The notes: a model not told the origin generated them from the letters alone. Numbered from the stretch's first letter, positions 19,167 through 40,389 are shown. The stretch: DNA of 40,785 nucleotides from Myxococcota bacterium (GCA_047609825.1 JBLFXJ010000020.1:1-40785); one strand, 5' to 3'. Translations and numbers: made by a program.

Positions 19167-20116
<950 letters not shown>

Positions 20117-20117
<1 letters not shown>

Positions 20118-20938
20118 CACTTGGTCCCCAGCGCGATCCCACCGAAGGCGAGGGTGGCCGTGCCGATGCCGACCGAACCCCAATACGATGCCTGGTTGAC
20201 CGTGAGCAGCCCCTGGGCCCCGCTGCCCTTGTACGCCAGGTTCGTGGCGATGGCCGTGCCGAAGAGCGACGCGGCCGCGATGCCCGAGCCCGCCGCGAGG
20301 CCCCACCACGGCCCGCCGCCGCCGCCCGACCGGCTCTTCTTCGTGCTGCTGGCGACTGGCGCTGGGGGAGCGACGACGAACTCGGAGGACAGGCTCGAGG
20401 GCACGCCGGACCAGCCGGGGCCAGCGACGCTGGTCCACACCATATCATTGGCCGCCCGCCCGACCTGCACAACGGACGGCACATCCTCCGGACGGGTGGT
20501 GGAGGCGCTGCCGTCGACCCACACCTTGGCGCCAGCCGGTGCGGTGATCGCCGTGCGCGCTGACGCCCGAGCCGGGTCGGCTCCCTGCCACAGGCCGTCG
20601 ACCGGCCCGCCCGCGGGAGCCACGCTCTCGGGCAGATCCACCTCGCCCTGGATGGCCCGTGCCGAGACGAAGGAATCGGTGGTGGCCGCATCATCTCCTG
20701 CGAGGAACGCCCGGAGCGCGTGCACGCGGTGGACCGAGGCCGCGACGCCTGGGGACAGAACCGAGCCGAGGCACTCCACCATGCCGTCGATGCGGTTCAC
20801 CGAGGCGGTGAACCCGGTTTCATCGAGCGACGAGAACGCGTCGATGGCGGTGTTGGTCTCGGACAGGATCTGCGTGGGCGTGGCGGGCGTGTCGCAACCG
20901 GCGTGCGCGAGCGCCGAGAGGAGCAGCAGGACCATGGT
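20117..20938 (-). CDS. Lipoprotein with a C-terminal glycine-zipper (SlyB/Pcp-like) membrane segment
   Basis: The start is MVLLLLSALAHAGC (a lipobox). The C-terminus GWSGVP...GGGGGPWWGLAAGSGIAAASLFGTAIA...GIGTATLAFGGIALG is glycine-zipper-like. Confidence 0.5.
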
Positions 20939-21750: not shown

Positions 21751-21881
21751 GGGGCTGGCCCTGAGGGCAGGCTGGAGAGCCTTCGAACGCGCCGAGAGTA
21801 GTGTGGGTTTCGTCAAGGTGCGGGCGACGGCGCGCGGGCGCTGCGGGGCCTCGGTACGCTGGTGACGTACCGGGAGGTTCC

Positions 21882-22232
21882 ATGCGTTTGTCCACTGTCG
21901 TCTCCACCATCGGCATCCTGGCCGCCACCGCGCTGCCCACCACCGCGAGCACCGCGCCAGCCTTCCCCATCGTCATGCCGGTCAACTACTGCATCGGTGA
22001 CTGCACCGACATGCGCGTCACCGTCCAGTCGGATGGCTCATTCGAAGACAGCGATGGTGATGGCGGATTCTGGGAGATGAACAAGCCCACCCGCGAGTTC
22101 CGCCTGACCTACGAGTACGATCGCGACGCCGTTGGCATCGTGTTCTTCGGCGAGTTCGCTCGCGGATGCTTCACCGGGGTCGTGTTCGATGATCGCGGTG
22201 ACGAGGTCGGCGACTGGGAATCCTGCATCTAA
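21882..22232 (+). CDS. Small secreted Cys-containing hypothetical protein (116 aa)
   Basis: GGGAGG lies 5 nt upstream of ATG 21882. The signal peptide is MRLSTVVSTIGILAATALPTTAS. It contains 4 Cys. Confidence 0.5.
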   Translation: MRLSTVVSTIGILAATALPTTASTAPAFPIVMPVNYCIGDCTDMRVTVQSDGSFEDSDGDGGFWEMNKPTREFRLTYEYDRDAVGIVFFGEFARGCFTGVVFDDRGDEVGDWESCI

Positions 22233-22322: not shown

Positions 22323-22658
<336 letters not shown>

Positions 22659-22982
22659 ACTCGTATCTCGTTCTCTGTTGCGGCCGAGGCGGGCTCGATA
22701 CCGCGGATGCGTCGGACAGGAGGTCCGATCTCCGGAACGTCATGGTGACATCCCGAGTCCGGCGGCCCGCCCTCGCGCTTTCACTGCGAGGACTCCGCTC
22801 CAGACACTGCCGGGGTAACGCGGGACCGCGCTCGACGATGTTTTATCTGCGAAATCGACGCCATCGTCCCTTCTGCTGGCGTCGCGAGCGCCGGGGCGAC
22901 GGCGGGAATGGCCTGTTAGCGGTACGGCCTGGACCGAGGCCGCGCATGGCGTGGACTCTCATTCGAGAAGAGCGGAGGTGGC

Positions 22983-23390
22983 ATGGCGACGGCGATGTGG
23001 TGGCTGTGCGCAGTGGCGTTGGCCGATCCCGGCTGGGTGGGCACCTGGCAGAACGAGAGCGGATCGGCGCTCCAGATCCGATCCGTCGCGGCGGACGGTA
23101 CGTTGGTGGGCCAGTACAGCACCGAGCTCGGTGCCCCCGACGCCACTCACTGGTTTGACGTGCGCGGCTCGGCCCACGGCGATCAGCTGGCGTTCGTGGT
23201 GAACTGGGGCGAGCACGCGTCGCTCACGGCGTGGGTCGGTCAACGGATCGGATCGGGGGAGGAGGAGCGGCTTCGAACCCTGTGGCACCTCACCCGGGAT
23301 GTGCCCGAAGCGGACGAGGCCGACGCGATCTGGTCGTCGGTGATCTCGGGCTTTGCGGTGTTTCGACGGGTCACCGAAGCGCCGCGCTGA
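22983..23390 (+). CDS. Avidin/streptavidin-family (biotin-binding beta-barrel) protein, secreted
   Basis: GGAGGTGG lies immediately upstream of the ATG. The motifs GTWQNESGSALQI...DGTLVGQY, VNWGEHASLTAWVGQ and RLRTLWHLT align with the streptavidin core (GTWYNQLGSTFIV..DGALTGTY, WKNNYRNAHSATTWSGQ, RINTQWLLT), including the Trp positions. The signal peptide is short. Confidence 0.7.
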   Translation: MATAMWWLCAVALADPGWVGTWQNESGSALQIRSVAADGTLVGQYSTELGAPDATHWFDVRGSAHGDQLAFVVNWGEHASLTAWVGQRIGSGEEERLRTLWHLTRDVPEADEADAIWSSVISGFAVFRRVTEAPR

Positions 23391-24246
23391 GCGCCTCGGC
23401 GTCGGCACGCCAGGGCCGTGGCCACCGCGCCTCCAGGTAGGGCGTGGGGTCGACCCCTCGGTCGGCGGCGTCCACTGCCAGCGCCCATCGCACCTCGGGT
23501 CTGCGGGCGCCGACCGCCTGCGCGGCAGCGAGGGCCTCGGCCGAAGAGTGTCCCAGCGCCCGCTGCGCGGCGGCCACGCCCAGCCACGCGGTGGTGTGCT
23601 TTGGCTTGGCGCGAACCACAGATTCGAACACCACCAGGGCATCGGCCGGGCTGTCGGGCAGCGCGGCGCACCCCAGGGCGAGCTCCGTCTGCCAGCGGGC
23701 CGGATCGTGGGCGTTGCGGGCGGACTCCAGGTCACCGGGCGGGCATGGGGGTCGGCTCCACACCAGGCTCACCGGGAGCGCCACGTCCACCAGCAGCGCA
23801 GCGTCGCGCTCCAGGATCCACCCGCGGGCGGTGTCGGCGGCCGGCCCCCACCAGCGGTCCTCCGCGGCCGCGGTGAGCACCTCGATCCAGGCCTGCTCCG
23901 CCCGGCGCCATAGCGCCGCAGGCAGGTCGTCGTCGGAGTCGGTGAGGCGGTGGGTGTCGGCCTGTGCGCCCAGCTCGGCGAGGTGGGTCGCGATGCGGGC
24001 CGAGAGCACCCGGGCCTCGGCGGCGTCTGGTGGAGGCCCAGCGAGTGCGGGGACCACGGCCTCGTCGGCGGCGTCACGAGCGTCCATCAGCGCGCGCATC
24101 GCCATCACCCACGGGGCCGCGGCGGCCCGATCGGTGGGGTTGGGTACCGAGGGCAGCGAGTGCTGTTCGAAGGCCTCGACCGCGCGGACGGCCTCAGCGA
24201 GCTCGGGTGTTCCGGCCACAGCGAGTGCGGCCCAGAGCAGGACCAT
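23371..24246 (-). CDS. Hypothetical secreted Ala-rich helical protein
   Basis: The signal peptide is MVLLWAALAVAG. The alternative frames are Ser/Arg-rich junk. The 3' end overlaps the avidin-like gene by 20 bp in a convergent arrangement. Confidence 0.4.
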   Translation of the reverse strand: MVLLWAALAVAGTPELAEAVRAVEAFEQHSLPSVPNPTDRAAAAPWVMAMRALMDARDAADEAVVPALAGPPPDAAEARVLSARIATHLAELGAQADTHRLTDSDDDLPAALWRRAEQAWIEVLTAAAEDRWWGPAADTARGWILERDAALLVDVALPVSLVWSRPPCPPGDLESARNAHDPARWQTELALGCAALPDSPADALVVFESVVRAKPKHTTAWLGVAAAQRALGHSSAEALAAAQAVGARRPEVRWALAVDAADRGVDPTPYLEARWPRPWRADAEALSAALR

Positions 24247-31607: not shown

Positions 31608-34600
31608 TCAGCCCTTGGAGCCGCTGGCCAGGTCGGCCACCGCGCTCGCCACGCTCCGCCTCAGGTCTGAGACGAAGGCGTCGTGTAGCTCGGCGGGCAG
31701 CCGCGCCTTGGCGCTGGCCGCCATGTGCACGGTGAGGATCTCCACGACGCTGAGGGCCGCCGCGAGCGTTGAGTCGTCGCCGGCATCCACTGGTCGGATG
31801 TCGTTGTTCAGCGCCCGCTGCGCCTGGCCGAGCAGCTTCTGGCGGCTCTCCGCCATGCTGCGATGCACCGGCGTGGGGCCAGGCGGGAGTGTTGCGGCTG
31901 CCGGGGCGGCCGCCCGCTCCTGGAGTGCCGTGCGCAGCCCCCGGAGCTCGTGCAGCACGTCGGTGAGCGTGGCGTCGCTGCCGCCACCGGACTGTGCCAG
32001 CGCCTGGTGGATGGCCTGCAGCGGCTCCACCATGGACTGGACGCCGGGGATCTCGCCCCGCTGAACGCCCTGGAAGTGCCGCGCGATGAACCCGATGCCG
32101 CGCTCCACCTTGTCGAGCTCCAGAGCGGGGCGTGCCTCGAGGGTGGTGGCGATGGTGGACAGCGCCGCCACGAGCCCAGCCAGCCGCTCCTCGGTGCCGG
32201 CCCCGCTGGTGAGCACCTCGCGGATGCCGGCCAGCTCCTGGGACGCGCCGCCGGTGGTGAGAGTGAGGGCGTCGCGGATGCCGGTGAGGTTGTCGTCCAG
32301 CCGGGCGAGCTGCGTGGGCACAGCATCGCCCGTGAGCTTGTCGCCCAGGTGGACGAGGTTCTGGGCCATTCCCGAGAGCACCCCGGTGACCCGGGCCACG
32401 GGGTCATCGTCGCCACCACCCATCAGCTGGCGTCGGCGGTATTCCTCACGGATCTTGCCGAGTCGCTGGGCCTCTTCGTCGGTGAGCAGGCCGCGGAGCT
32501 CGGCGAGACGGAGCAGGTTGTACTCCGCACCGGTGGTCAGCGTCTGGGCCTCGCCGCGGTAGTGGTCGGAGATGACCTCGAGCACCTCGTCCGGGGTGAG
32601 CGCAGGCACGATCTTCTCGGCGAGCTTGTTCATGTTCCGGTACGAACCCTGGAGCTGGAACCTCGGCTCGGTGCGGAACGCATCCTCCATGGCGGCGGAC
32701 CGGATGTACTCGGCGTTCACCTTCAGGAGCACATCCCGGGCGGTGAACAGGTGGGCGAAGGTGCCGCGGATCTCGTTCAGCTCTACGGCCGAGTAGTCGT
32801 GGGACAGCTCGCTCGGGCTGATCTCCTCCCCGGCTGCCATGCGGATGAGGGTGTACACATCCTTCTGGGGCCGGGCAGCCAGCGGCTGCAGGGCAGGGTT
32901 CGAGGTGAGCCCGTTCTCGAGGAATGACAGGGCGAACACGTCCTCGCGCCCGCCGAGCACATCGCCCAGGTTGTAGGTGTCGGCGCGGTTGGCGAGCATG
33001 TCGGGGATCTGGAACTTGTCGCCGGTCTCGGTGTACGGGTTGCCCGCCATCACCACGGCGAACTTCTTGCCCCGGAGGTCATAGGTGCGGGTGCGGCCAT
33101 TCCACACGCCCTCGATGCGCCGGCTGGCGTCGCACAGCGAGATGAACTTCTGGAGGAACTCGGGGTTCGTGTGCTGGATGTCGTCGAGGTAGAGCATGAC
33201 GTTGTTGCCCATCTCGAGCGCCAGGTTCACCTTCTCCACCTCCTGCCGGGCCGTGGCATTGGGGGCCTCGCTGGGGTCGAGCGACTCGACGGAGTGGCCG
33301 AGCGCGGGTCCGTTCACCTTGACGAACACCAGCCCGAGCCGGCTCGCGATGTACTCCATCAGGGTGGTCTTGCCGTAGCCGGGCGGTGAGATGAGCAGCA
33401 GCAGGCCCATCAGGTCGGTGCGCTTGCCGGCGCCGGACGCGCCCATCTGCTTGGCGAGGTTGTCGCCCACCAGGTGCAGGTACACGTCGCTGATCAGCTT
33501 GTTGCGTACGAACGCGGTCATCACCTTGGGCTGGAACTCGTCGACCCGGAGGGTGGTTCGCCAGTGCTCCACCAGCGCGGTGCGGCGCTCGCGGTAGTCC
33601 CGGAAGCCTGGCACTCGCTCATGGTCGAACCGCTGGAGCCGCTCGACGAACTCGGACAGACGCAGGTCGAGCCGGCGCTCGACCACCCGTGGATGCTGGC
33701 CGAGCAGGCCCTCCACGGTGGTGGCGCCCGTGCCGCCCGACACGTCGGCGTCGATGGTGCGCCCTACGAGCAGCATCGTGGCCGCCTCGGCGGCGACCGG
33801 AGCCAGTGCGGTGTAGCGCTCGTCGTCGGTGTTCTGCGCGAAGGTCTCGAGCCAGGCCTGCTTGATGGTGAACCGCAGGTCGAGGCGGTCGGCGAGGGGG
33901 CGCAGGGCGTCCTCGAAGCGCATGCTCCCGCCGTGGTCCTCGAGCCACCGGAGGAGCCCGTCCCGCAGCTCGGCGGCCTCCTGGCCGAACACGAACCGCA
34001 CGGGCTGGCGCGCGAGCACTTCGAACAGGTACTGGCCAGCGAGCGCGCCCTGGGCCGCCACCCACGACCCGTCGGGGTCGAAGCCAGCGTCGGCGTGCCA
34101 GGTGGTGAGCGACGCGGTGAGGTGGTCGACGAACCGGGTGAGCGCCGGCGACAGGCCCAGGGCGTCGCGCAGCTTGGCGAGGGATCGGGCCTGGGCGACC
34201 CACCCCTCTGCGGGCTTGTCCTCACAGAACGCCCAGTACAGGGTGGCGAGGGTGCGCGCTGTGCTCGGGAACCGGAGGAGGTCGGCGGTCTTGCGCAGGC
34301 CGACCAGTGCTTGGAGGATACGCACGGCGTCCGCGTCGTGGATCCCTCGGTCATACCCCTCTTCATAGCGATTGGCGGCGTAGGTGCGCACCGTCTCGAG
34401 CAGCCGCCCTTCCTGCAGCACCGCCGCTTCCAGCTCAGCGATGGACAGCCCCGCGCGCCCGGCCTCAGCATCCGAGAGCAGGCAGTAGGCGAGGTACTCC
34501 GAGCGGTACACCTCGCTCGTCTCCGAGATCACCGTCTGTGACCAATACGGACGGGTGGCGGCGAACTCCGGGTCGTCGACCGACTGGTGGAAGTCCGTGC

Positions 34601-37283
34601 CGGTGAGGTGCAGCGCCACGGCGTCGCCCTTCGGCACCAGGGTCATCTCGAGGGGCTGGGTGTTCACGCTGAACCGGTGCTTGCCGAACCGCACCAGGTT
34701 GCTGTCGCCGTCGAACAGGTCGATCTTGTCGCGCAGTCCGCGGAGCGCGTCTTGCTTCGCCGACTTCAGCTTGGATCGGAGCTCCTCGGCCTTCACCGAA
34801 TCGCCGAGCCCGTCGAGCTGGTCGCCCAGACTTCCGAGCTTGAGCACCATCGGGTCGGAGGCGAAGTAGGTGTTCAGCTCGTCTTCGGCCTTGAACGCGC
34901 GGGACCGGCGCTGCACGCCCTGGACGATGCGGTTGGCGGCCGTCATCAGGGCGTCGATGCGCCGGTTGCGCTCGTCGACCAGGGTCTGCTTGCGCCCGCT
35001 GAACGCTTGGTACACCTCGTCGCGCTTGTCGGCGAGATCGGGCAGGAACTCGTCGAAGTCGCCGAACCGCGCCTCAAGCTCCTCGAGCTGGAGCAGCAGC
35101 TTGGACAGCTGGTCGTCGCACGCCTCGGGGGAGTCGCACAGCGCGAGCGCGGACTGGACCGACTGGCCGAACAGCTTGAACTGCGCGACGAACTCGGCCC
35201 GGCCCTCGGCGGTCCTCAGCTCCTTGGTGCGGTTGGTGAGGACCGCACGCACTCGGTTGGCGTGGGAGAATACTTCGCCGATCTGGTCGAGGATCACCGT
35301 CTTTCGGGTGGGATCCTCCACCTCGATGCCGGCGACGACCTCGGCGAGCAGGTTCACGCCTCCGCTGGTGGTGTCGAGCTGCTCGGTGAGCGGCGCGAGC
35401 TCGGTGGCCTTGCTCACCGCCTCGATCTCGACGAGCAGCGCGTCGAGAGCGGTGCGCAGGGGCTCGAACGCAGCGTCACCCTCGAGGAATCCGATGGCGT
35501 CGCGGCTCACCTTGTCGAACCGCTCCACGGCCTCGGCCTCGAGGGCGTCGAGCACCTCGAGGTCGACGTACCGGGTCTCCTTCAGCGTGATCAGGTGGCC
35601 GCGGTGGGTGCGGAGCGCGGTCATCGCGCCGAGGAACTCGTCGATCCGCTTGAAGTACTCGGTGCGCACATCGGTGAGCAGCTTGGCGTGCTCGGCCTTG
35701 GCGGTCCGCAGCACCTCCTTCGCCCGGGCCTTCAGGGTCTGGACCTTGATGAACTCGTCGATGATCAGCTCGGCCGTACGCCGCACATCCTCCACGACCG
35801 CGCGGAGGTTGCCGACTCCGGCGTCCGCCGCCCAGTAGTAGGCATCGGCGAACCGGTTGCACGCGCCGACCAGCTCCTCGTACATCGCCCGCGTGGGCTC
35901 CTGGTTGCGGGTGAGACGCACCAGGGTGAACGCGTCCGAGATGCCGCGCACCAGCTCCTTGTTGCCGATCCGGCCGAGCAGGGAGTCATCGGTGGGCGCG
36001 GCCTCGTAGGCCTCGGGCGACATGAACGGCGTCTGCCACACCTGCATCGGGTGCACGCGGGTGGGCTCCGGCGTCGCGCGGAACACGACCAAGGTGCCGT
36101 CTTCGAACAGGCTGTAGCCGGAGCACTGGATGGGGGTGGCGACCTCTTTCCGGATCAGGTTGTACGGGTACAGCGCGTACTGGCCCTCGTCTCTCCGGTG
36201 GAAGACGTACATCACATCTTCGCCGTTCGGCGCGTGGATGGCGCGCACGAACTCGAGGTCGTCGATGCCCTCCTGCTCGAAGACCTTGTACTCACCGTCG
36301 CGGAGGTAGTACCCGCCAGGGAACAGGATTCCGTGGTCTTCGGGGAGCGAGACGCACGAGTGCCCGATGGTGTCGATGCGCAGCACGTGCCGGGTGTTGA
36401 TGTTGTACACCAGGTACCGGAAGGCCTCTTCCCGGTAGGGCCGGACCTTGAGCAGCACCAGGGCGCCCCGGCGGGCGTAGTGGATTGTTGCGTCGTCGAG
36501 TGACTGGTTCGGGTCGTTCACCGCCTCGGAGTAGATGCCTTCGCCATCTTCTGTGTTGTTATCGACCTTGATCGTGAGATCTCCGCCGACGGTCTCGACG
36601 AACACCAGGTCGAGTACGTTCACGTGGGGGTGGCGCCCGCGCACATGGTCTTCGCGGGTGGTAGCCGTCCATTCGAAGTCGTGGGTCGGCGGGAACACGT
36701 GGTCCCGCTCGCCGCGGCTGTCGATGTAGGTGGTGGTGCCGTCGGGGTCGACGGCCCAGCGGAGAACCTTCACATCCCGCGCGGTGGCGCCGGTCTGGAA
36801 CACGGCGAGCAGCTTGGTCTCGGTGACCCGGAGCTGGATGAGCCGGGCGTCCTTGTAGTACTGGTACAGCTCGCCGAACTCCCGCACGAAGGTGCGGTCG
36901 GTGAGGAATTCGAGCTTGGACTCCTCCTGCACCGCGTGGAAGCCGAAGCCCCCTTCGGCGCGCTCGAACTTCTGCAGGGCGAGCACGTCGGCGGCGGTGA
37001 TCTGCCGCTTCAGGCCGATGTGGACGTTGTAGCCGAACAACAGCTCGCCGCCGACCTGGACGATGTCCACCGGTACGCAGTTGTTCTCGGTGCGCACGCG
37101 CTCGTTGCCGAGGATGGCGAGTTCGGTGCTACCGAACGCACCCTCGCGGCGGTCGTTGAGGGCCGCGGTGGAGGTGTGCAGCGTGTCGCCGAGCCCGCTG
37201 AGACGGGTTCGGATCACGTCGTAGTTGCCGCCCTCGAGCGCATCTGCGGGTTGCGGTGTGGCGGGGGTCTGCGCGTCGGACAT
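31608..37283 (-). CDS. Giant (1891 aa) multidomain protein with a central MoxR/AAA_5-type AAA+ ATPase core; family unknown
   Basis: It is a single uninterrupted ORF with good codon usage. Walker A is LLISPPGYGKTT and Walker B is VMLYLDD. Sensor-1 is AVVMAGNP. A degenerate second P-loop-like GASGAGKRT lies 12 aa upstream. The N-terminal ~430 aa are beta-rich. The N-terminal third has a long coiled-coil-rich region, and the C-terminal ~350 aa are Ala/Leu-rich and helical. Confidence 0.75.
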   Translation of the reverse strand: MSDAQTPATPQPADALEGGNYDVIRTRLSGLGDTLHTSTAALNDRREGAFGSTELAILGNERVRTENNCVPVDIVQVGGELLFGYNVHIGLKRQITAADVLALQKFERAEGGFGFHAVQEESKLEFLTDRTFVREFGELYQYYKDARLIQLRVTETKLLAVFQTGATARDVKVLRWAVDPDGTTTYIDSRGERDHVFPPTHDFEWTATTREDHVRGRHPHVNVLDLVFVETVGGDLTIKVDNNTEDGEGIYSEAVNDPNQSLDDATIHYARRGALVLLKVRPYREEAFRYLVYNINTRHVLRIDTIGHSCVSLPEDHGILFPGGYYLRDGEYKVFEQEGIDDLEFVRAIHAPNGEDVMYVFHRRDEGQYALYPYNLIRKEVATPIQCSGYSLFEDGTLVVFRATPEPTRVHPMQVWQTPFMSPEAYEAAPTDDSLLGRIGNKELVRGISDAFTLVRLTRNQEPTRAMYEELVGACNRFADAYYWAADAGVGNLRAVVEDVRRTAELIIDEFIKVQTLKARAKEVLRTAKAEHAKLLTDVRTEYFKRIDEFLGAMTALRTHRGHLITLKETRYVDLEVLDALEAEAVERFDKVSRDAIGFLEGDAAFEPLRTALDALLVEIEAVSKATELAPLTEQLDTTSGGVNLLAEVVAGIEVEDPTRKTVILDQIGEVFSHANRVRAVLTNRTKELRTAEGRAEFVAQFKLFGQSVQSALALCDSPEACDDQLSKLLLQLEELEARFGDFDEFLPDLADKRDEVYQAFSGRKQTLVDERNRRIDALMTAANRIVQGVQRRSRAFKAEDELNTYFASDPMVLKLGSLGDQLDGLGDSVKAEELRSKLKSAKQDALRGLRDKIDLFDGDSNLVRFGKHRFSVNTQPLEMTLVPKGDAVALHLTGTDFHQSVDDPEFAATRPYWSQTVISETSEVYRSEYLAYCLLSDAEAGRAGLSIAELEAAVLQEGRLLETVRTYAANRYEEGYDRGIHDADAVRILQALVGLRKTADLLRFPSTARTLATLYWAFCEDKPAEGWVAQARSLAKLRDALGLSPALTRFVDHLTASLTTWHADAGFDPDGSWVAAQGALAGQYLFEVLARQPVRFVFGQEAAELRDGLLRWLEDHGGSMRFEDALRPLADRLDLRFTIKQAWLETFAQNTDDERYTALAPVAAEAATMLLVGRTIDADVSGGTGATTVEGLLGQHPRVVERRLDLRLSEFVERLQRFDHERVPGFRDYRERRTALVEHWRTTLRVDEFQPKVMTAFVRNKLISDVYLHLVGDNLAKQMGASGAGKRTDLMGLLLLISPPGYGKTTLMEYIASRLGLVFVKVNGPALGHSVESLDPSEAPNATARQEVEKVNLALEMGNNVMLYLDDIQHTNPEFLQKFISLCDASRRIEGVWNGRTRTYDLRGKKFAVVMAGNPYTETGDKFQIPDMLANRADTYNLGDVLGGREDVFALSFLENGLTSNPALQPLAARPQKDVYTLIRMAAGEEISPSELSHDYSAVELNEIRGTFAHLFTARDVLLKVNAEYIRSAAMEDAFRTEPRFQLQGSYRNMNKLAEKIVPALTPDEVLEVISDHYRGEAQTLTTGAEYNLLRLAELRGLLTDEEAQRLGKIREEYRRRQLMGGGDDDPVARVTGVLSGMAQNLVHLGDKLTGDAVPTQLARLDDNLTGIRDALTLTTGGASQELAGIREVLTSGAGTEERLAGLVAALSTIATTLEARPALELDKVERGIGFIARHFQGVQRGEIPGVQSMVEPLQAIHQALAQSGGGSDATLTDVLHELRGLRTALQERAAAPAAATLPPGPTPVHRSMAESRQKLLGQAQRALNNDIRPVDAGDDSTLAAALSVVEILTVHMAASAKARLPAELHDAFVSDLRRSVASAVADLASGSKG

Positions 37284-37363
37284 GGGTGCCCTGGGGTGGT
37301 GGCGGGCCAGACGGACGCCCCCCGCTCAGGTGAGCGAGGGGCGAGAGCGGGTGTGGGCCGGCA

Positions 37364-37382
37364 GGCGTGCGGAGCGCACGCC
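37364..37382. other. GC-rich hairpin (8-bp stem, 3-nt loop) in the 119-bp gap between the flotillin and giant ATPase genes
   Basis: The stem is GGCGTGCG gag CGCACGCC. No U-tract follows it. Confidence 0.35.
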
Positions 37383-37402
37383 CGACGGCGGAGAGCCGAG
37401 GC

Positions 37403-39538
37403 TCAGGCGTCGGTGCTGTCGGTGCTGCTGTCGCCCGCGATGCGCTTCTTCACAGCGTCGAGCACGCCCTTGGCTGCAGGGGACTCGGCGAGGAAGCCGT
37501 CCAGCGCCTTGCCCACGCTCGCCGCCTGGACCAACTTGTCGAGGAACTGGCCGTCGCCGCCCATGATCTGGATGTCGGCGTTGCCGAATGCCTCCCCGAG
37601 CACCTTGGCCTGCTCCGCCGCGACGGCCATCTGCGCCTCGATGGCAGCGAGCCGGATGGTCTGGTCGTGCTCCAGTTGGATGCGGAACTCCTCGTGCTCG
37701 CGCGCCGCGCCTTCCATGGCCTGCATCGCCTCGAGCTTGGCCTTGAGACCTGCGGCCTCGGCGGACATCCGCTCACGGATGGAGGTCGCCTCGGCCAGTC
37801 CGGCCACCTCGATCACGCGCGCGTCGGCCTCCTTGCCCTTCGCCATCGCGAGCAGCTCCTTCTCCAGCGCATCGGCGCCGGCGGACTTGCCCTCGGCCTC
37901 GGCCAGCAGCCGGGCCCGGATGGACGCGCCCGCAGCCTCGCCCTGCTTCTGCACCGCGGCCGCATCGGCTTCCTTGCCCTGCGCCTCGGCCACGGCCTTC
38001 TCACGGATGAGCTGCGTCTCGAGCTCGATCTCGCGCTGGCGCACCTTCATGCGGGCCATGCCGCGGTCTTCCTCGCCCCGGGCCTGGGCCTGGGCCTTCT
38101 CCACATGCACCCGCGCCTCGGCCACGCCCTCCTTCTCCATCGCGATGGCGTTGGCCTCGCGCACCTTCACGTCGGCCATGCCCTGGGCGGCCACCTCGGC
38201 TTGCGTACCCTCGGCGAGCCGGATCTGGGCCTTGGCTGTACGCTCTGCCGCTTCGAGGTCGGCGTTGGCGAGCACGACCTTCTCCCGGGCCTTGAACTCG
38301 GCGACCTTCTCGTCGGCCTCGGCCTCCTTGATGGTCTTCACGAGGTTCTCTTCGGCCTCACCCTGGGCGCCGATGATCGCCACGTCCTTCTTCCGGTTGG
38401 CCTCCGCATGCACGCGGAGATCCTTGATGCGCTCCTCCTCTTCGGCGACGTTCTTGTCGACGACGATGCGGCCCCGCACGACCTCGGCGATCTCCTTCCG
38501 CTTGACCTCGAGCTCCATCTCCTTGTCGATCTCCTGGCGCTCCACTTCGCGCTGGCGGGAGATCTCCTCGATCTGACGGTCGCGCTCGACCTGCTCGGAC
38601 TTGATGGCCACGACGCGCTCGCGGTCTTTGTCGGCCACCTCGACCTGGCGCTGCTTGTTCAGCTCGCCGATCTGGATCTCCTCTTCCGACTTGATCCGGG
38701 CGATCTGGGCGCGCTGGTTCTCTTCGGACTGCACCTTGGAGGTCTCGGCGGCCTCGCGTGCCTTCACGGTCTCGATCTCGCGCTGCTGCTTGGCCTCAGC
38801 GTCGGCCCGACGGCGCTCGAGCTCCAGGATCGCCTCGTCCGCCTCGAGGTTCTGCCGGGTGACCTCCTTGCGCTCGTTCTGCCGGAGCTGGTTGGTGAGC
38901 ACGTTCTGCTCGGCGGTCATCTGGGTGATCTTCCGGATGCCCTGGCTGTCGAGGATGTTGTCCTTGTCGAGCTTCTCAATCGGCGTCTGCTCGAGGTAGT
39001 CGATGGCGGCGTCTTCGAGAGCGTAGCCGTTGAGATCGCGGCCGATCACGTCGATGATCTGGTCCTTGAAGTCATCGCGCTGGGTGTACAGCTGCTCGAA
39101 CTCGAGCTGCTTGCCGACGGTCTTCAGTGCCTCGGAGAACTTGGCGACGAACAGCTGCTCCAGGGTGTCCTGGTCGCTGGCGCGCTTGCAGCCGATGGAC
39201 TGGGCCACCTTCAGCACGTCTTCCTTGGTCTTGTTCACCCGCACATAGAAGCTGACCTTGATGTCAGCGCGGATGTTGTCGTGGCAGATCAGGCCTTCGT
39301 GGCCGGACCGCGCGATCTCGATGGTCTTGACCGAGATGTCCATCACCTCGGAGCGGTGGATGATCGGCAGCACGACGGCGCCCGTGAACGTAACGTCGGG
39401 CTCGTTGCTCATCTTGTTGACGATGAGGGCATTGCCCTGGTCCACCTTGCGGTAGAACCGGGCGACCATCATCGCCCCCCCTCCGAGGATGACCAAGAGA
39501 GCGACTACGCTGGCGACAGCGAGCAAAACGATTTCCAT
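37403..39538 (-). CDS. Flotillin-family (SPFH/Band-7, YqiK/FloT-like) membrane protein with a very long E/A/K/R coiled-coil
   Basis: An N-terminal TM helix is followed by an SPFH domain (..VVLPIIHRSEVMDISVKTIEIARS...DNIRADIKVSFYVRV..) and about 450 aa of EA-repeat coiled-coil. A GGAGG RBS lies inside the 3' end of the upstream gene. Confidence 0.85.
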   Translation of the reverse strand: MEIVLLAVASVVALLVILGGGAMMVARFYRKVDQGNALIVNKMSNEPDVTFTGAVVLPIIHRSEVMDISVKTIEIARSGHEGLICHDNIRADIKVSFYVRVNKTKEDVLKVAQSIGCKRASDQDTLEQLFVAKFSEALKTVGKQLEFEQLYTQRDDFKDQIIDVIGRDLNGYALEDAAIDYLEQTPIEKLDKDNILDSQGIRKITQMTAEQNVLTNQLRQNERKEVTRQNLEADEAILELERRRADAEAKQQREIETVKAREAAETSKVQSEENQRAQIARIKSEEEIQIGELNKQRQVEVADKDRERVVAIKSEQVERDRQIEEISRQREVERQEIDKEMELEVKRKEIAEVVRGRIVVDKNVAEEEERIKDLRVHAEANRKKDVAIIGAQGEAEENLVKTIKEAEADEKVAEFKAREKVVLANADLEAAERTAKAQIRLAEGTQAEVAAQGMADVKVREANAIAMEKEGVAEARVHVEKAQAQARGEEDRGMARMKVRQREIELETQLIREKAVAEAQGKEADAAAVQKQGEAAGASIRARLLAEAEGKSAGADALEKELLAMAKGKEADARVIEVAGLAEATSIRERMSAEAAGLKAKLEAMQAMEGAAREHEEFRIQLEHDQTIRLAAIEAQMAVAAEQAKVLGEAFGNADIQIMGGDGQFLDKLVQAASVGKALDGFLAESPAAKGVLDAVKKRIAGDSSTDSTDA

Positions 39539-39543
39539 CGAGG

Positions 39544-40389
39544 CTACTCCTCCGAGAGAGACTTGTTGCGGGTTGTGGCGGCCTGGGCTGCCAGGGACTG
39601 ACCGGCACGCGCCGGGGCCCCGAGTGGAGCGGTGAGGGGCTCGATGACGAACGCCTCACGCTTGCGGTCGAACGACACGATCAGGGCGCGCTGGCCCTTT
39701 CGCAGGGTGTTGTCAGCCGTGTCGCAGCGCACCTGGAACAGCAGGTCGTCGCCGCCGACCATCGCGATGGCCTGACCGAATCGGCCGTCGACGCGGCCCG
39801 TGGTGATCTCGCACGCCTCGCCGACGAGGGAGTTGCGCTCGCGGGCGTGGGCCACCTTGAACACCGGCTCGACCGGGCGGGTGGCCACGTTTGTGAATGC
39901 GGTGGCGAGGAGCGATGCCGTGAGGAAGATCAAGGCGCCGAGCACGGCTCCATGCAGCGCGACGCTGGCCTGGAGTGCGGTCCAGGTGAGCAGGAAGCTG
40001 GTGAACCAGCCGCCGAACACGAACAGGGACAGGGTGATGGTGGCGGGCACCCGGCCGAGCCGGAGGGCGTTCGCGATGAACTTGAGCGCGCTGAAGCTCT
40101 CGGCGGAGCCGTCCATGTCGGCGTCGAGGTCGGTGTCGGCCTCCACGGCGCCGTCGATGGCATCGGCGGCGCCGTCTACGGCACCATCCATCGCTCCATC
40201 GAGCGCGCCGTCGATGGCACCGTCCATCGCGCCTTCGAGGCCCTCGCCGGCACCGTCGAGCACGCCGTCCATCAGGTCGATGTCGGCCGCGCCGAGCATC
40301 ACGGTGACCCAGTACAGCAGCACCAGGCCGAGCGAGACCGAGAACACGATCGTGGGGAAGGAGACCAGAATGTCGAAGAAACCCTGCAT
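39544..40389 (-). CDS. YqiJ/NfeD-like inner-membrane protein (the flotillin partner) with a DGAxD pentapeptide repeat tract
   Basis: TM helices flank an acidic (GAMDGAIDGALDGAMDGAVDGA..) repeat region. The C-terminal soluble domain resembles the NfeD OB-fold-like domain. It lies immediately upstream of the flotillin gene with a 5-bp gap, as in E. coli yqiJK. Confidence 0.6.
   Translation of the reverse strand: MQGFFDILVSFPTIVFSVSLGLVLLYWVTVMLGAADIDLMDGVLDGAGEGLEGAMDGAIDGALDGAMDGAVDGAADAIDGAVEADTDLDADMDGSAESFSALKFIANALRLGRVPATITLSLFVFGGWFTSFLLTWTALQASVALHGAVLGALIFLTASLLATAFTNVATRPVEPVFKVAHARERNSLVGEACEITTGRVDGRFGQAIAMVGGDDLLFQVRCDTADNTLRKGQRALIVSFDRKREAFVIEPLTAPLGAPARAGQSLAAQAATTRNKSLSEE

What the first reader, a model, noticed from the sequence alone, without database searches (positions are those of the whole stretch)
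22983..23390. Bacterial avidin/streptavidin-like gene
The 135-aa secreted protein aligns motif-for-motif with the streptavidin core, including the GTW.N..GS start of strand 1, DG.L.G.Y, and the W-containing strands. Avidin-like proteins in bacteria are sporadic (streptavidin, rhizavidin, tamavidin-like). A new member would be of biotechnological interest and is a possible antimicrobial biotin scavenger.
Basis: partly seen in the sequence, partly recalled or inferred. Interest (0 to 1): 0.6.

Follow-up and report, generated by a model that had tools for sequence, protein, structure and literature searches.

The report
Avidin-family biotin-binding gene, uncultured myxobacterium
The gene is a genuine but ordinary member of the avidin/streptavidin family of biotin-binding proteins, from an uncultured Myxococcota genome. 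It keeps all but one of the classic biotin-contact residues: the streptavidin Asp128 position is Ala.

Summary
The 135-aa ORF at 22983..23390 (+) is real and is an avidin.

- **Family match:** Pfam Avidin PF01382 scores 74.4 bits against a cutoff of 24, E = 1.3e-20.
- **Coding evidence:** GC3 is 0.85, a GGAGG sits 4 nt before the ATG, and dN/dS is 0.13 against a close relative.
- **Biotin contacts:** The exception is Asp128, which is Ala125 here and in its three full-length relatives of about 70% identity. All 12 verified avidins aligned have Asp or Asn there. D128A costs streptavidin 4.4 kcal/mol, so I infer tight but sub-streptavidin binding.
- **Export:** only plausible. The pre-sequence is 14 hydrophobic residues with no basic residue.
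- **Role:** no biotin or antibiotic genes are nearby and the context is not conserved, so a scavenger role is untested.
- **Novelty:** the exact protein is in NCBI as a Myxococcota MAG "hypothetical protein". It groups with uncharacterised putative avidins already catalogued in 2021 (Hellea, Kiloniella, M. thermoresistibile). The nearest verified avidin is streptavidin at 33% identity.

Verdict: a new member of a known kind, of modest interest.

The parts
22983..23390 (+). Complete coding sequence of the avidin-family protein (135 aa plus TGA)
   Evidence: ORF list and sequence. Pfam PF01382 at 74.4 bits. GC3 0.85 against 0.63-0.73 for the overlapping ORFs. The same gene call appears in JGI contigs. 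dN/dS is 0.13 against L027.
22974..22978 (+). Shine-Dalgarno-like GGAGG, 4 nt upstream of the ATG
   Evidence: Read directly from the sequence. The relatives L001 and L021 also carry GGAGG 5 nt upstream of their ATG.
22659..22982 (.). 324-bp divergent intergenic region between the RRM RNA-binding gene (minus strand) and the avidin gene. It presumably holds the avidin promoter, which was not identified.
   Evidence: Gene positions. No sigma-70-type consensus was found, so the promoter is inferred, not shown.
22983..23024 (+). Residues 1-14, MATAMWWLCAVALA: a short hydrophobic pre-sequence ending in Ala-Leu-Ala before Asp15. A possible minimal Sec signal peptide.
   Evidence: The 8-residue Kyte-Doolittle maximum is 2.35, with no Lys or Arg. 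The core MWWLxAxALA[DE]PGW is conserved in P0002, P0003 and P0005, whose genes start at MWWL behind their own SD. pLDDT is only about 65 for residues 1-10. No signal-peptide predictor was available.
23025..23387 (+). Residues 15-135: the predicted mature eight-stranded avidin beta-barrel. Strands are 20-23, 29-35, 40-46, 58-65, 68-74, 80-89, 96-105 and 120-130.
23295..23330 (+). Residues 105-116, RDVPEADEADAI: an acidic loop between strands 7 and 8, 4 residues longer than in streptavidin. It is predicted partly helical (109-115) and ends at Trp117, the Trp120 equivalent.
   Evidence: Alignment with verified and putative avidins. DSSP on the model. The same acidic insertion is seen in the Hellea, Kiloniella, M. 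thermoresistibile and Flagellimonas sequences.
23355..23357 (+). Codon GCG for Ala125, at the position of streptavidin Asp128 and avidin Asn118. This is the one missing biotin contact.
   Evidence: phmmer alignments to streptavidin and MAFFT alignments. Across 100 family members this column is D 72, S 12, A 7, N 5.

Best explanation
The gene encodes a small avidin-family protein of an uncultured Myxococcota bacterium. After probable removal of a very short signal peptide (cleavage after Ala14), the roughly 121-residue mature chain folds into the eight-stranded avidin barrel. It binds D-biotin in the canonical pocket.

**Predicted pocket**
- Asn24, Ser28 and Tyr45 hold the ureido oxygen.
- Thr47 takes one ureido NH.
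- Ser80 and Thr82 contact the valeryl carboxylate and the thiophene.
- Trp75, Trp84 and Trp101 line the pocket.
- Trp117, on the loop between strands 7 and 8, caps it, probably from a neighbouring subunit as in tetrameric (strept)avidin.

The second ureido-NH acceptor (streptavidin Asp128) is Ala. By analogy with the streptavidin D128A mutant, I expect affinity about a thousand-fold below streptavidin and faster release, but still very tight.

**Likely role.** The protein probably captures free biotin in the periplasm or outside the cell, either withholding it from competitors or hoarding it for the producer.

**Shown:** the gene is real and under purifying selection; family membership; the predicted fold; the residue pattern.

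**Inferred:** biotin binding and its strength; export; oligomeric state; ecological role.
For: **Family and fold**
- Pfam Avidin at 74.4 bits, E = 1.3e-20.
- PDB sequence hits are exclusively streptavidin, avidin or hybrids.
- AlphaFold model with pLDDT 91.4 and eight strands.

**Pocket conservation**
- 10 of 11 listed contacts are conserved on concordant alignments.
- The same positions are the most conserved columns across 100 family members: N 94%, S 97%, W84 99%, W101 96%, W117 95%.
- Both Trp residues whose replacement abolishes binding in fibropellin-like avidin mutants (avidin W70 and W110; PMC8033661 discussion) are kept, as W75 and W117.

**A functional gene**
- Coding-frame signature and SD.
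- dN/dS is 0.13, and none of the 7 substitutions falls at a contact residue.

**Affinity estimate**
- D128A costs 4.4 kcal/mol by ITC (Hyre et al. values quoted in PMC4888747).

**Export**
- A hydrophobic pre-sequence with an AXA site immediately before the barrel is conserved in the subclade.
- More distant relatives carry ordinary signal or lipoprotein-type leaders, for example P0008 and P0023.
Against: - No binding experiment exists for this protein or, as far as the searched literature shows, for any member of its subgroup. The nearest verified avidin is only 33% identical.
- Ala125 removes a hydrogen bond that all 12 verified avidins aligned keep as Asp or Asn.
- The avidin contacts Phe72 and Ser73 are Glu77 and His78 here.
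- The pre-sequence is shorter than typical Sec signals and has no basic residue. About half of the related proteins have no hydrophobic leader at all.
- Gene context gives no functional support. The neighbours are MsrA, an RRM protein, cyclophilin, a pseudopilin-like protein and an M16 peptidase. There are no biotin-pathway or biosynthetic-cluster genes, and no neighbour is conserved beside homologues elsewhere.
Confidence: 0.72

Rival explanations
1. It is an avidin-fold protein with weakened or shifted specificity. The Asp-to-Ala change, together with Phe124, Glu77 and His78, makes it a moderate-affinity, reversible binder of biotin. Alternatively it binds a biotin-related metabolite such as desthiobiotin, a biotin antimetabolite or biotinylated peptides. 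It would then act as a carrier or buffer, not as an irreversible sequestering agent.
For: - Ala125 replaces a contact that is invariant as D or N in 12 verified avidins.
- The position is variable (S, N, A, D) specifically in this branch.
- The change is fixed together with Phe124 (GFAVF) in the query and all three full-length relatives of about 70% identity.
- D128A costs streptavidin 4.4 kcal/mol.
- Streptavidin itself has recently been shown to bind a second natural ligand, acidomycin (PMC13336041 abstract).
- Many relatives lack any leader and so would sit in the cytoplasm, where femtomolar biotin binding would be harmful. That last point is inference.
Against: - All four pocket Trp residues and the Asn/Ser/Tyr oxyanion triad are intact.
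- A single D128A change still leaves streptavidin a roughly picomolar binder. This is arithmetic and the Kd of about 1e-14 M quoted in PMC13338456.
- Nothing in the window points to another ligand.
Confidence: 0.2
2. It is a cytoplasmic avidin. The hydrophobic N-terminus is not a signal peptide, and the protein stays inside the cell as a biotin store or regulator.
For: - The pre-sequence is 10-14 residues with no Lys or Arg, which is atypical for Sec substrates.
- Of 103 related proteins, 28 have fewer than 12 residues before strand 1, and a further 49 have a longer pre-sequence that is neither hydrophobic nor lipobox-bearing.
- About half of the bacterial avidins in the 2021 survey also lack a predicted signal peptide (PMC8033661).
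Against: - The segment is strongly hydrophobic, with a Kyte-Doolittle maximum of 2.35.
- It ends in Ala-x-Ala exactly 5 residues before the barrel.
- It is conserved as MWWLxAxALA[DE]PGW although it lies outside the fold. The model gives it low confidence, so it is not part of the barrel.
Confidence: 0.25
3. It is a chance ORF or decaying pseudogene in a 70% GC genome, where long spurious ORFs are common.
For: - Dozens of overlapping ORFs exist in all frames here.
- A 93.5%-identical copy in other metagenomes loses homology after codon 118 and is truncated.
Against: - HMM E-value of 1e-20.
- The correct-frame GC3 signature is unique to this frame.
- SD present.
- dN/dS is 0.13.
- A confident avidin fold.
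- Identical intact copies lie on four independent contigs.
Confidence: 0.02

Closest known systems
Uncharacterised putative avidins in the 2021 survey (PMC8033661): Mycobacterium thermoresistibile WP_003924221.1, Hellea balneolensis WP_084169061.1, Kiloniella spongiae WP_047765324.1, Flagellimonas sp. WP_136465220.1. Homologues in Litorimonas, Algimonas and Hellea genomes also belong here.
   Same: - These are the best matches among the catalogued sequences I compared (32 of the catalogue): 44.5, 41.6, 39.7 and 36.0% identity. Genome homologues are 40-50% identical.
- The L5,6 loop has the same short, avidin-like length.
- They share a 'VG.P(D/E)' motif in L3,4.
- They share the 4-residue-longer acidic L7,8 loop (DxxDxDExxxLW).
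- The Asp128 position is likewise relaxed, to S or N.
   Different: - The query subclade has Ala at the Asp128 position, preceded by Phe (GFAVF).
- It keeps Trp rather than Phe at the streptavidin W79 position.
- It has the unusual MWWL pre-sequence.
- It comes from high-GC Myxococcota-type metagenomic genomes, a phylum absent from that survey.
- None of these relatives has been tested biochemically in the literature searched.
Streptavidin (Streptomyces avidinii), core residues 13-139
   Same: - These contacts are conserved: N23, S27, Y43, S45 (Thr here), W79, S88, T90, W92, W108 and W120.
   Different: - Not an orthologue: the NCBIfam streptavidin equivalog scores 44.8 bits against a cutoff of 300.
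- Asp128 is Ala and His127 is Phe.
- L5,6 is 4 residues shorter and L7,8 is 4 residues longer.
- There is no C-terminal extension.
- It is not embedded in a biotin-antimetabolite gene-cluster region as streptavidin genes are (PMC13336041).
Streptavidin D128A mutant (PDB 1SWS/1SWT)
   Same: The engineered mutant has the same Ala at the ureido-NH acceptor position. It is among the best PDB sequence matches (1sws_A).
   Different: The mutant is a laboratory construct used to study dissociation, with a loss of 4.4 kcal/mol. Here the Ala is natural and fixed in a subclade, in a different sequence background. Its effect may therefore be compensated.
Chicken avidin, BBP-A and xenavidin (animal avidins)
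   Same: - The L5,6 loop has the same length: W70-x4-S75 against W75-x4-S80.
- Thr sits at the S45 position.
   Different: - Only 28% identity.
- The animal proteins have Asn118, Phe72 and Ser73 contacts and a disulfide.
- The mature query has no Cys, and has Ala125, Glu77 and His78.
Dimeric bacterial avidins (rhizavidin, shwanavidin, hoefavidin, bradavidin II)
   Different: The dimeric group has a Cys pair bridging L3,4 and L5,6, and lacks the Trp120-type lid (established knowledge; sequences). The query has no Cys after residue 9 and keeps Trp117. Identity is about 31% over partial alignments.

Membership tests
Avidin family (Pfam PF01382) | Sequence matches the family HMM above the curated gathering score over essentially the whole domain | tested here: met
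   74.4 bits against a cutoff of 24, E = 1.3e-20. Residues 20-127 match profile positions 4-115 of 116.
Avidin family (Pfam PF01382) | Eight-stranded antiparallel up-and-down beta-barrel | tested here: met
   [not shown]
Avidin family (Pfam PF01382) | Aromatic pocket: four Trp/Phe positions (streptavidin W79, W92, W108, W120; avidin W70, F79, W97, W110) | tested here: met
   W75, W84, W101 and W117. Over 100 relatives these columns are F/W, W 99%, W 96% and W 95%.
Avidin family (Pfam PF01382) | Ureido-oxygen triad Asn/Ser/Tyr (streptavidin N23, S27, Y43) | tested here: met
   N24, S28 and Y45.
Avidin family (Pfam PF01382) | Ureido-NH acceptors: Ser/Thr (S45/T35) and Asp/Asn (D128/N118) | tested here: not met
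   Thr47 is present, but the Asp/Asn position is Ala125 in three concordant alignments. This is a binding-strength feature. It is not a criterion for fold or family membership.
Avidin family (Pfam PF01382) | Ser and Thr on strand 6 contacting the carboxylate and thiophene (S88, T90) | tested here: met
   S80 and T82.
Avidin family (Pfam PF01382) | High-affinity binding of D-biotin | not testable with these tools
   This needs purified protein. It is only inferred from the residue pattern and the D128A literature.
Avidin family (Pfam PF01382) | Dimer or tetramer assembly, with a Trp lid donated across the 1-2 interface in tetrameric members | not testable with these tools
   Only a single chain could be modelled. 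The presence of Trp117 is compatible with the tetrameric type.
Streptavidin proper (NCBIfam NF047623 equivalog) | Score above the equivalog cutoff | tested here: not met
   44.8 bits against a cutoff of 300, and 33% identity. It is streptavidin-like, not a streptavidin.
Dimeric avidins (rhizavidin type) | Disulfide between L3,4 and L5,6, and absence of the Trp120-type lid | tested here: not met
   The mature region has no Cys and Trp117 is present.
Secreted avidins | Cleavable N-terminal Sec or lipoprotein signal peptide | tested here: inconclusive
   The 14-residue leader is hydrophobic and has an AXA site but no basic residue. No SignalP-type tool was available.
Streptavidin-type biotin-antimetabolite network | Avidin gene adjacent to biosynthetic clusters for biotin-pathway inhibitors (stravidin, acidomycin and others; PMC13336041) | tested here: not met
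   No such genes were found among the ORFs scanned across the window or in the JGI domain calls. Only 40.8 kb of the genome is visible.

The most novel reading that the evidence does not exclude
The query and its metagenomic relatives of about 70% identity would form a natural 'D128A-type' avidin lineage in uncultured Myxococcota. The lineage would have a fixed GFAVF motif, a helical acidic lid loop and a minimal 10-14-residue leader. It would have evolved fast-release or altered-ligand binding, for example of a biotin precursor or antimetabolite. It would then act as a periplasmic vitamin shuttle or buffer, not as an irreversible sequestering toxin. That would also make it a ready-made natural scaffold for reversible biotin capture.
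Probability: 0.18. Interest if true: 0.45.

Novelty: new member of a known kind. Interest (0 to 1): 0.27.

Why it matters
Avidins are workhorse reagents, and every divergent natural member offers new properties such as affinity, off-rate, oligomeric state and stability.

This protein belongs to a branch of the family with no solved structure and no biochemical data in the libraries searched. It also carries a natural version of a mutation (D128A) known to loosen streptavidin's grip, so it could be a starting point for reversible-binding tools.

Biologically, it adds Myxococcota, predatory and antibiotic-rich bacteria, to the phyla that carry avidin genes. That fits, but does not prove, the idea that biotin withholding is a weapon in microbial competition.

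It also corrects a database annotation: NCBI lists the protein as 'hypothetical protein'.

None of this changes what is known about how avidins work.

Tried and rejected
1. **Gene context as a clue to function.**
   - Pfam scans of 20 surrounding ORFs and the JGI domain calls found housekeeping or unknown genes only.
   - tblastn of nine window genes (the avidin and its eight neighbours) against 20 homologue loci found only the avidin itself conserved.
   - In Litorimonas-type genomes the homologue sits between an Na+/H+-antiporter-family gene and dnaJ, which is also uninformative.
2. **Defence-system membership.** PADLOC gave no hit for the avidin or its unknown neighbours.
3. **Regulatory RNA, promoter, terminator and repeats.** No Rfam match in the window. 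No sigma-70 consensus or intrinsic terminator in 22600-23500. Only chance-level repeats.
4. **A gapless phmmer alignment was rejected.** It pairs streptavidin W79 with query F71. The query has the short avidin-type L5,6 loop, and with a 4-residue gap W79 and W70 align with W75.
5. **Sample origin.** I tried to learn the habitat or lineage from the related 'Deltapro3' MAG name in the literature. The hits were irrelevant.
6. **AlphaFold-database fold search.** The afdb50 library was unavailable.
7. **Spurious-ORF hypothesis.** Rejected on frame statistics, SD, dN/dS and fold.
8. **Recent horizontal acquisition.** Not supported: gene GC is 0.689 against 0.704 for the window, and GC3 is like the neighbours.

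Full report
**1.

- An ATG-to-TGA ORF of 135 codons occupies 22983..23390 on the + strand.
- An in-frame stop lies 24 codons upstream with no alternative start between, so the N-terminus is fixed. GGAGG lies 4 nt before the ATG.
- In this 70% GC window almost every stretch carries overlapping ORFs, but only this frame has the coding signature of the genome. GC1/GC2/GC3 are 0.67/0.55/0.85, against GC3 of 0.63-0.73 for the overlapping ORFs and 0.82-0.88 for neighbouring real genes.
- JGI gene calls on four independent contigs carrying the identical protein give the same 135-aa gene.
- Against a 93.5%-identical copy from another metagenome, dN = 0.027 and dS = 0.211, a ratio of 0.13. The seven amino-acid differences all lie away from the ligand contacts.
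- The gene is real and under purifying selection.

**2. What it is**

- Pfam's Avidin model (PF01382) matches residues 20-127 to profile positions 4-115 of 116. The score is 74.4 bits against a gathering score of 24, E = 1.3e-20, and no other family matches.
- A sequence search of the PDB returns only streptavidins, avidin and streptavidin/rhizavidin hybrids, E from 2e-15 to about 4e-8 among the 60 matches shown.
- An AlphaFold2 model was built on 100 homologues. It has mean pLDDT 91.4 and pTM 0.81, eight beta-strands, and one short helix in the loop between strands 7 and 8.
- It is not streptavidin itself. The NCBIfam streptavidin equivalog scores 44.8 bits against a cutoff of 300, and identity to streptavidin is 33%.

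**3. The biotin pocket, residue by residue**

The MAFFT alignments agree with the phmmer alignments everywhere except the loop between strands 5 and 6. There the gapless phmmer alignment is wrong. The query has the short, avidin-type loop, and streptavidin W79 and avidin W70 correspond to query W75.

| Streptavidin | Avidin | Query |
|---|---|---|
| N23 | N12 | N24 |
| S27 | S16 | S28 |
| Y43 | Y33 | Y45 |
| S45 | T35 | T47 |
| W79 | W70 | W75 |
| S88 | S75 | S80 |
| T90 | T77 | T82 |
| W92 | F79 | W84 |
| W108 | W97 | W101 |
| W120 | W110 | W117 |
| D128 | N118 | **A125** |

The eleventh is Ala.
- Further differences are Glu77 and His78 at avidin's Phe72 and Ser73, and Phe124 at streptavidin His127.
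- Across 100 family members the pocket positions are the most conserved columns: N24 94%, S28 97%, W84 99%, W101 96%, W117 95%. The Asp128 column is D 72, S 12, A 7, N 5.
- All 12 experimentally verified avidins in the 2021 survey's sequence file have Asp or Asn there.
- The Ala, together with the preceding Phe (GFAVF), is fixed in the query and in the three full-length relatives of about 70% identity.
- In streptavidin, D128A lowers the binding free energy by 4.4 kcal/mol (ITC values of Hyre et al. as quoted in PMC4888747). That is roughly a thousand-fold.
- By analogy only, I expect tight binding, around 1e-11 M if all else were equal to streptavidin's roughly 1e-14 M, with faster release.
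- The two Trp residues whose replacement destroys binding in fibropellin-like mutants (avidin W70 and W110; PMC8033661) are intact.

**4. Export**

- The pre-sequence is MATAMWWLCAVALA, followed by DPGW and then strand 1.
- It is strongly hydrophobic (8-residue Kyte-Doolittle maximum 2.35) and ends in Ala-Leu-Ala five residues before the barrel.
- Its core, MWWLxAxALA[DE]PGW, is conserved in the subclade. The relatives' genes start at MWWL, directly behind their own GGAGG.
- It is only 10-14 residues long with no Lys or Arg, and no predictor was available.
- Among 103 related proteins, about a quarter have clear signal or lipoprotein leaders, and at least half have no hydrophobic leader. This echoes the roughly 50% reported in the survey (PMC8033661).
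- I rate export to the periplasm or beyond as likely but unproven, at about 0.6.

**5. Where it comes from and who its relatives are**

- The exact sequence is in NCBI as MFT4622245.1 and MFT5456989.1, 'MAG: hypothetical protein ACI8PZ_000901 [Myxococcota bacterium]'. Its longest contig is 40,785 bp, which is this window.
- A word-indexed search of 5.8 billion proteins found only five close relatives (70-94% identity), all metagenomic.
- An exhaustive HMMER scan of 1.84 billion cluster representatives found 438 with E <= 1e-3 and 91 with E <= 1e-10.
- In species-representative genomes the best match is a 'Deltapro3' MAG at 72%. Next come Litorimonas, Algimonas, Hellea and other Caulobacterales at 40-50%.
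- Against 32 sequences taken from the 2021 catalogue (PMC8033661), the nearest are the putative avidins of M. thermoresistibile (44.5%), Hellea balneolensis (41.6%), Kiloniella spongiae (39.7%) and Flagellimonas (36.0%). The nearest verified avidin is streptavidin at 33%.
- These neighbours share the long acidic loop before the lid Trp and a relaxed Asp128 position.
- I found no biochemical or structural study of this subgroup. No closer PDB entry exists either.
- The survey lists no Myxococcota or deltaproteobacterial avidin.

**6. Context and role**

- The flanking genes are:
  - an unknown gene
  - msrA
  - a small unknown secreted-looking ORF
  - a glycine-rich RRM RNA-binding protein, divergent from the avidin gene across a 324-bp spacer
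  - then the avidin gene
  - a convergent unknown 291-aa gene that overlaps the avidin stop by 20 bp
  - a cyclophilin
  - a pseudopilin-like gene
  - an M16 peptidase
  - a molybdopterin oxidoreductase
- Further out are a TonB-dependent receptor, DUF4331, a PLD-like protein and others.
- No biotin-synthesis, transport or antimetabolite genes were seen.
- None of the neighbours accompanies the homologues in 20 other loci.
- This contrasts with streptavidin genes, which bracket a region of biotin-antimetabolite clusters (PMC13336041).
- The gene's base composition matches the window, so there is no sign of recent transfer.
- The scavenger or competition role is therefore a family-level hypothesis (PMC8033661), not something this locus supports on its own. 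I put it at about 0.3-0.4. The alternatives are hoarding or shuttling of biotin for the producer.

**7. Verdict**

- The finding is a new, unannotated member of a well-known family. It sits in a branch already catalogued but never characterised.
- It is modestly interesting for biotechnology, as a natural loosened-contact variant from a divergent branch. It is also modestly interesting for the taxonomic spread of avidins. It is not surprising to a specialist.

Noticed in passing
L027:476-884 and L028:299-708 (ENA assemblies ERZ24794645 and ERZ24794642): A copy 93.5% identical at the nucleotide level is collinear with the window gene for 354 nt. It then loses all similarity right after codon 118 (…AIWS) and hits a stop, which deletes strand 8. 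This is either a rearranged, disrupted allele in a sister population or a shared assembly chimera. The upstream flank is also unrelated to the window's.
   Followed up: partly
window 19827-19910: A near-perfect (98% matching) hexanucleotide array, (GGTGTC) x 14, lies inside the 423-aa minus-strand ORF 19167..20438, which has no Pfam match. On that strand it would encode an (Asp-Thr)14 run. More GC-rich short-period repeats follow at 19922-20019.
   Followed up: no
window 22323-22658 (-): The divergent neighbour is a 111-aa RRM-domain RNA-binding protein (PF00076, E = 2e-20). Its Gly-rich C-terminal tail is encoded by a CCG/GGC trinucleotide run at 22336-22411. This is the bacterial glycine-rich RBP type.
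   Followed up: partly
window 23371-24246 (-): A 291-aa ORF with a strong coding signature (GC3 0.87) has no Pfam or PADLOC match. It converges on the avidin gene and overlaps its last 20 nt. It is not found next to avidin homologues in other genomes.
   Followed up: partly
window 31608-40389 (-): A 1891-aa gene (DUF3686, DUF7902 and weak AAA hits in the JGI calls) lies in tandem on the same strand with two ORFs of 711 and 281 aa that match no Pfam or PADLOC family. This may be an uncharacterised three-gene module.
   Followed up: no
window 21801-22232 (+): A small ORF (143 aa as listed, 116 aa in the JGI call) has a hydrophobic leader, several Cys and no family match. It lies between msrA and the RRM gene.
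   Followed up: no
L003:5220-11420 and L025:380-3479: In Litorimonas sp. WD9-15 and in an unrelated metagenomic contig, the 47-49%-identical avidin homologue lies between an Na+/H+-antiporter-family gene and dnaJ, with a carboxylesterase in between in Litorimonas. This is a lineage-specific synteny with no obvious link to biotin.
   Followed up: partly
P0007-P0058 (representatives): Close family members differ in predicted location. Some have lipobox or signal leaders (for example P0008 with LSGC, P0023 with AAGC), while many begin only 4-15 residues before strand 1 with no hydrophobic segment. The Asp128 position varies (D, S, A, N) in the same branch. Whether leaderless members systematically have weakened pockets was not examined.
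   Followed up: no
window 22983-23390: NCBI lists this protein (MFT4622245.1, MFT5456989.1) as 'hypothetical protein', although it passes the Pfam Avidin threshold three-fold. JGI's precomputed domains do flag PF01382.
   Followed up: yes
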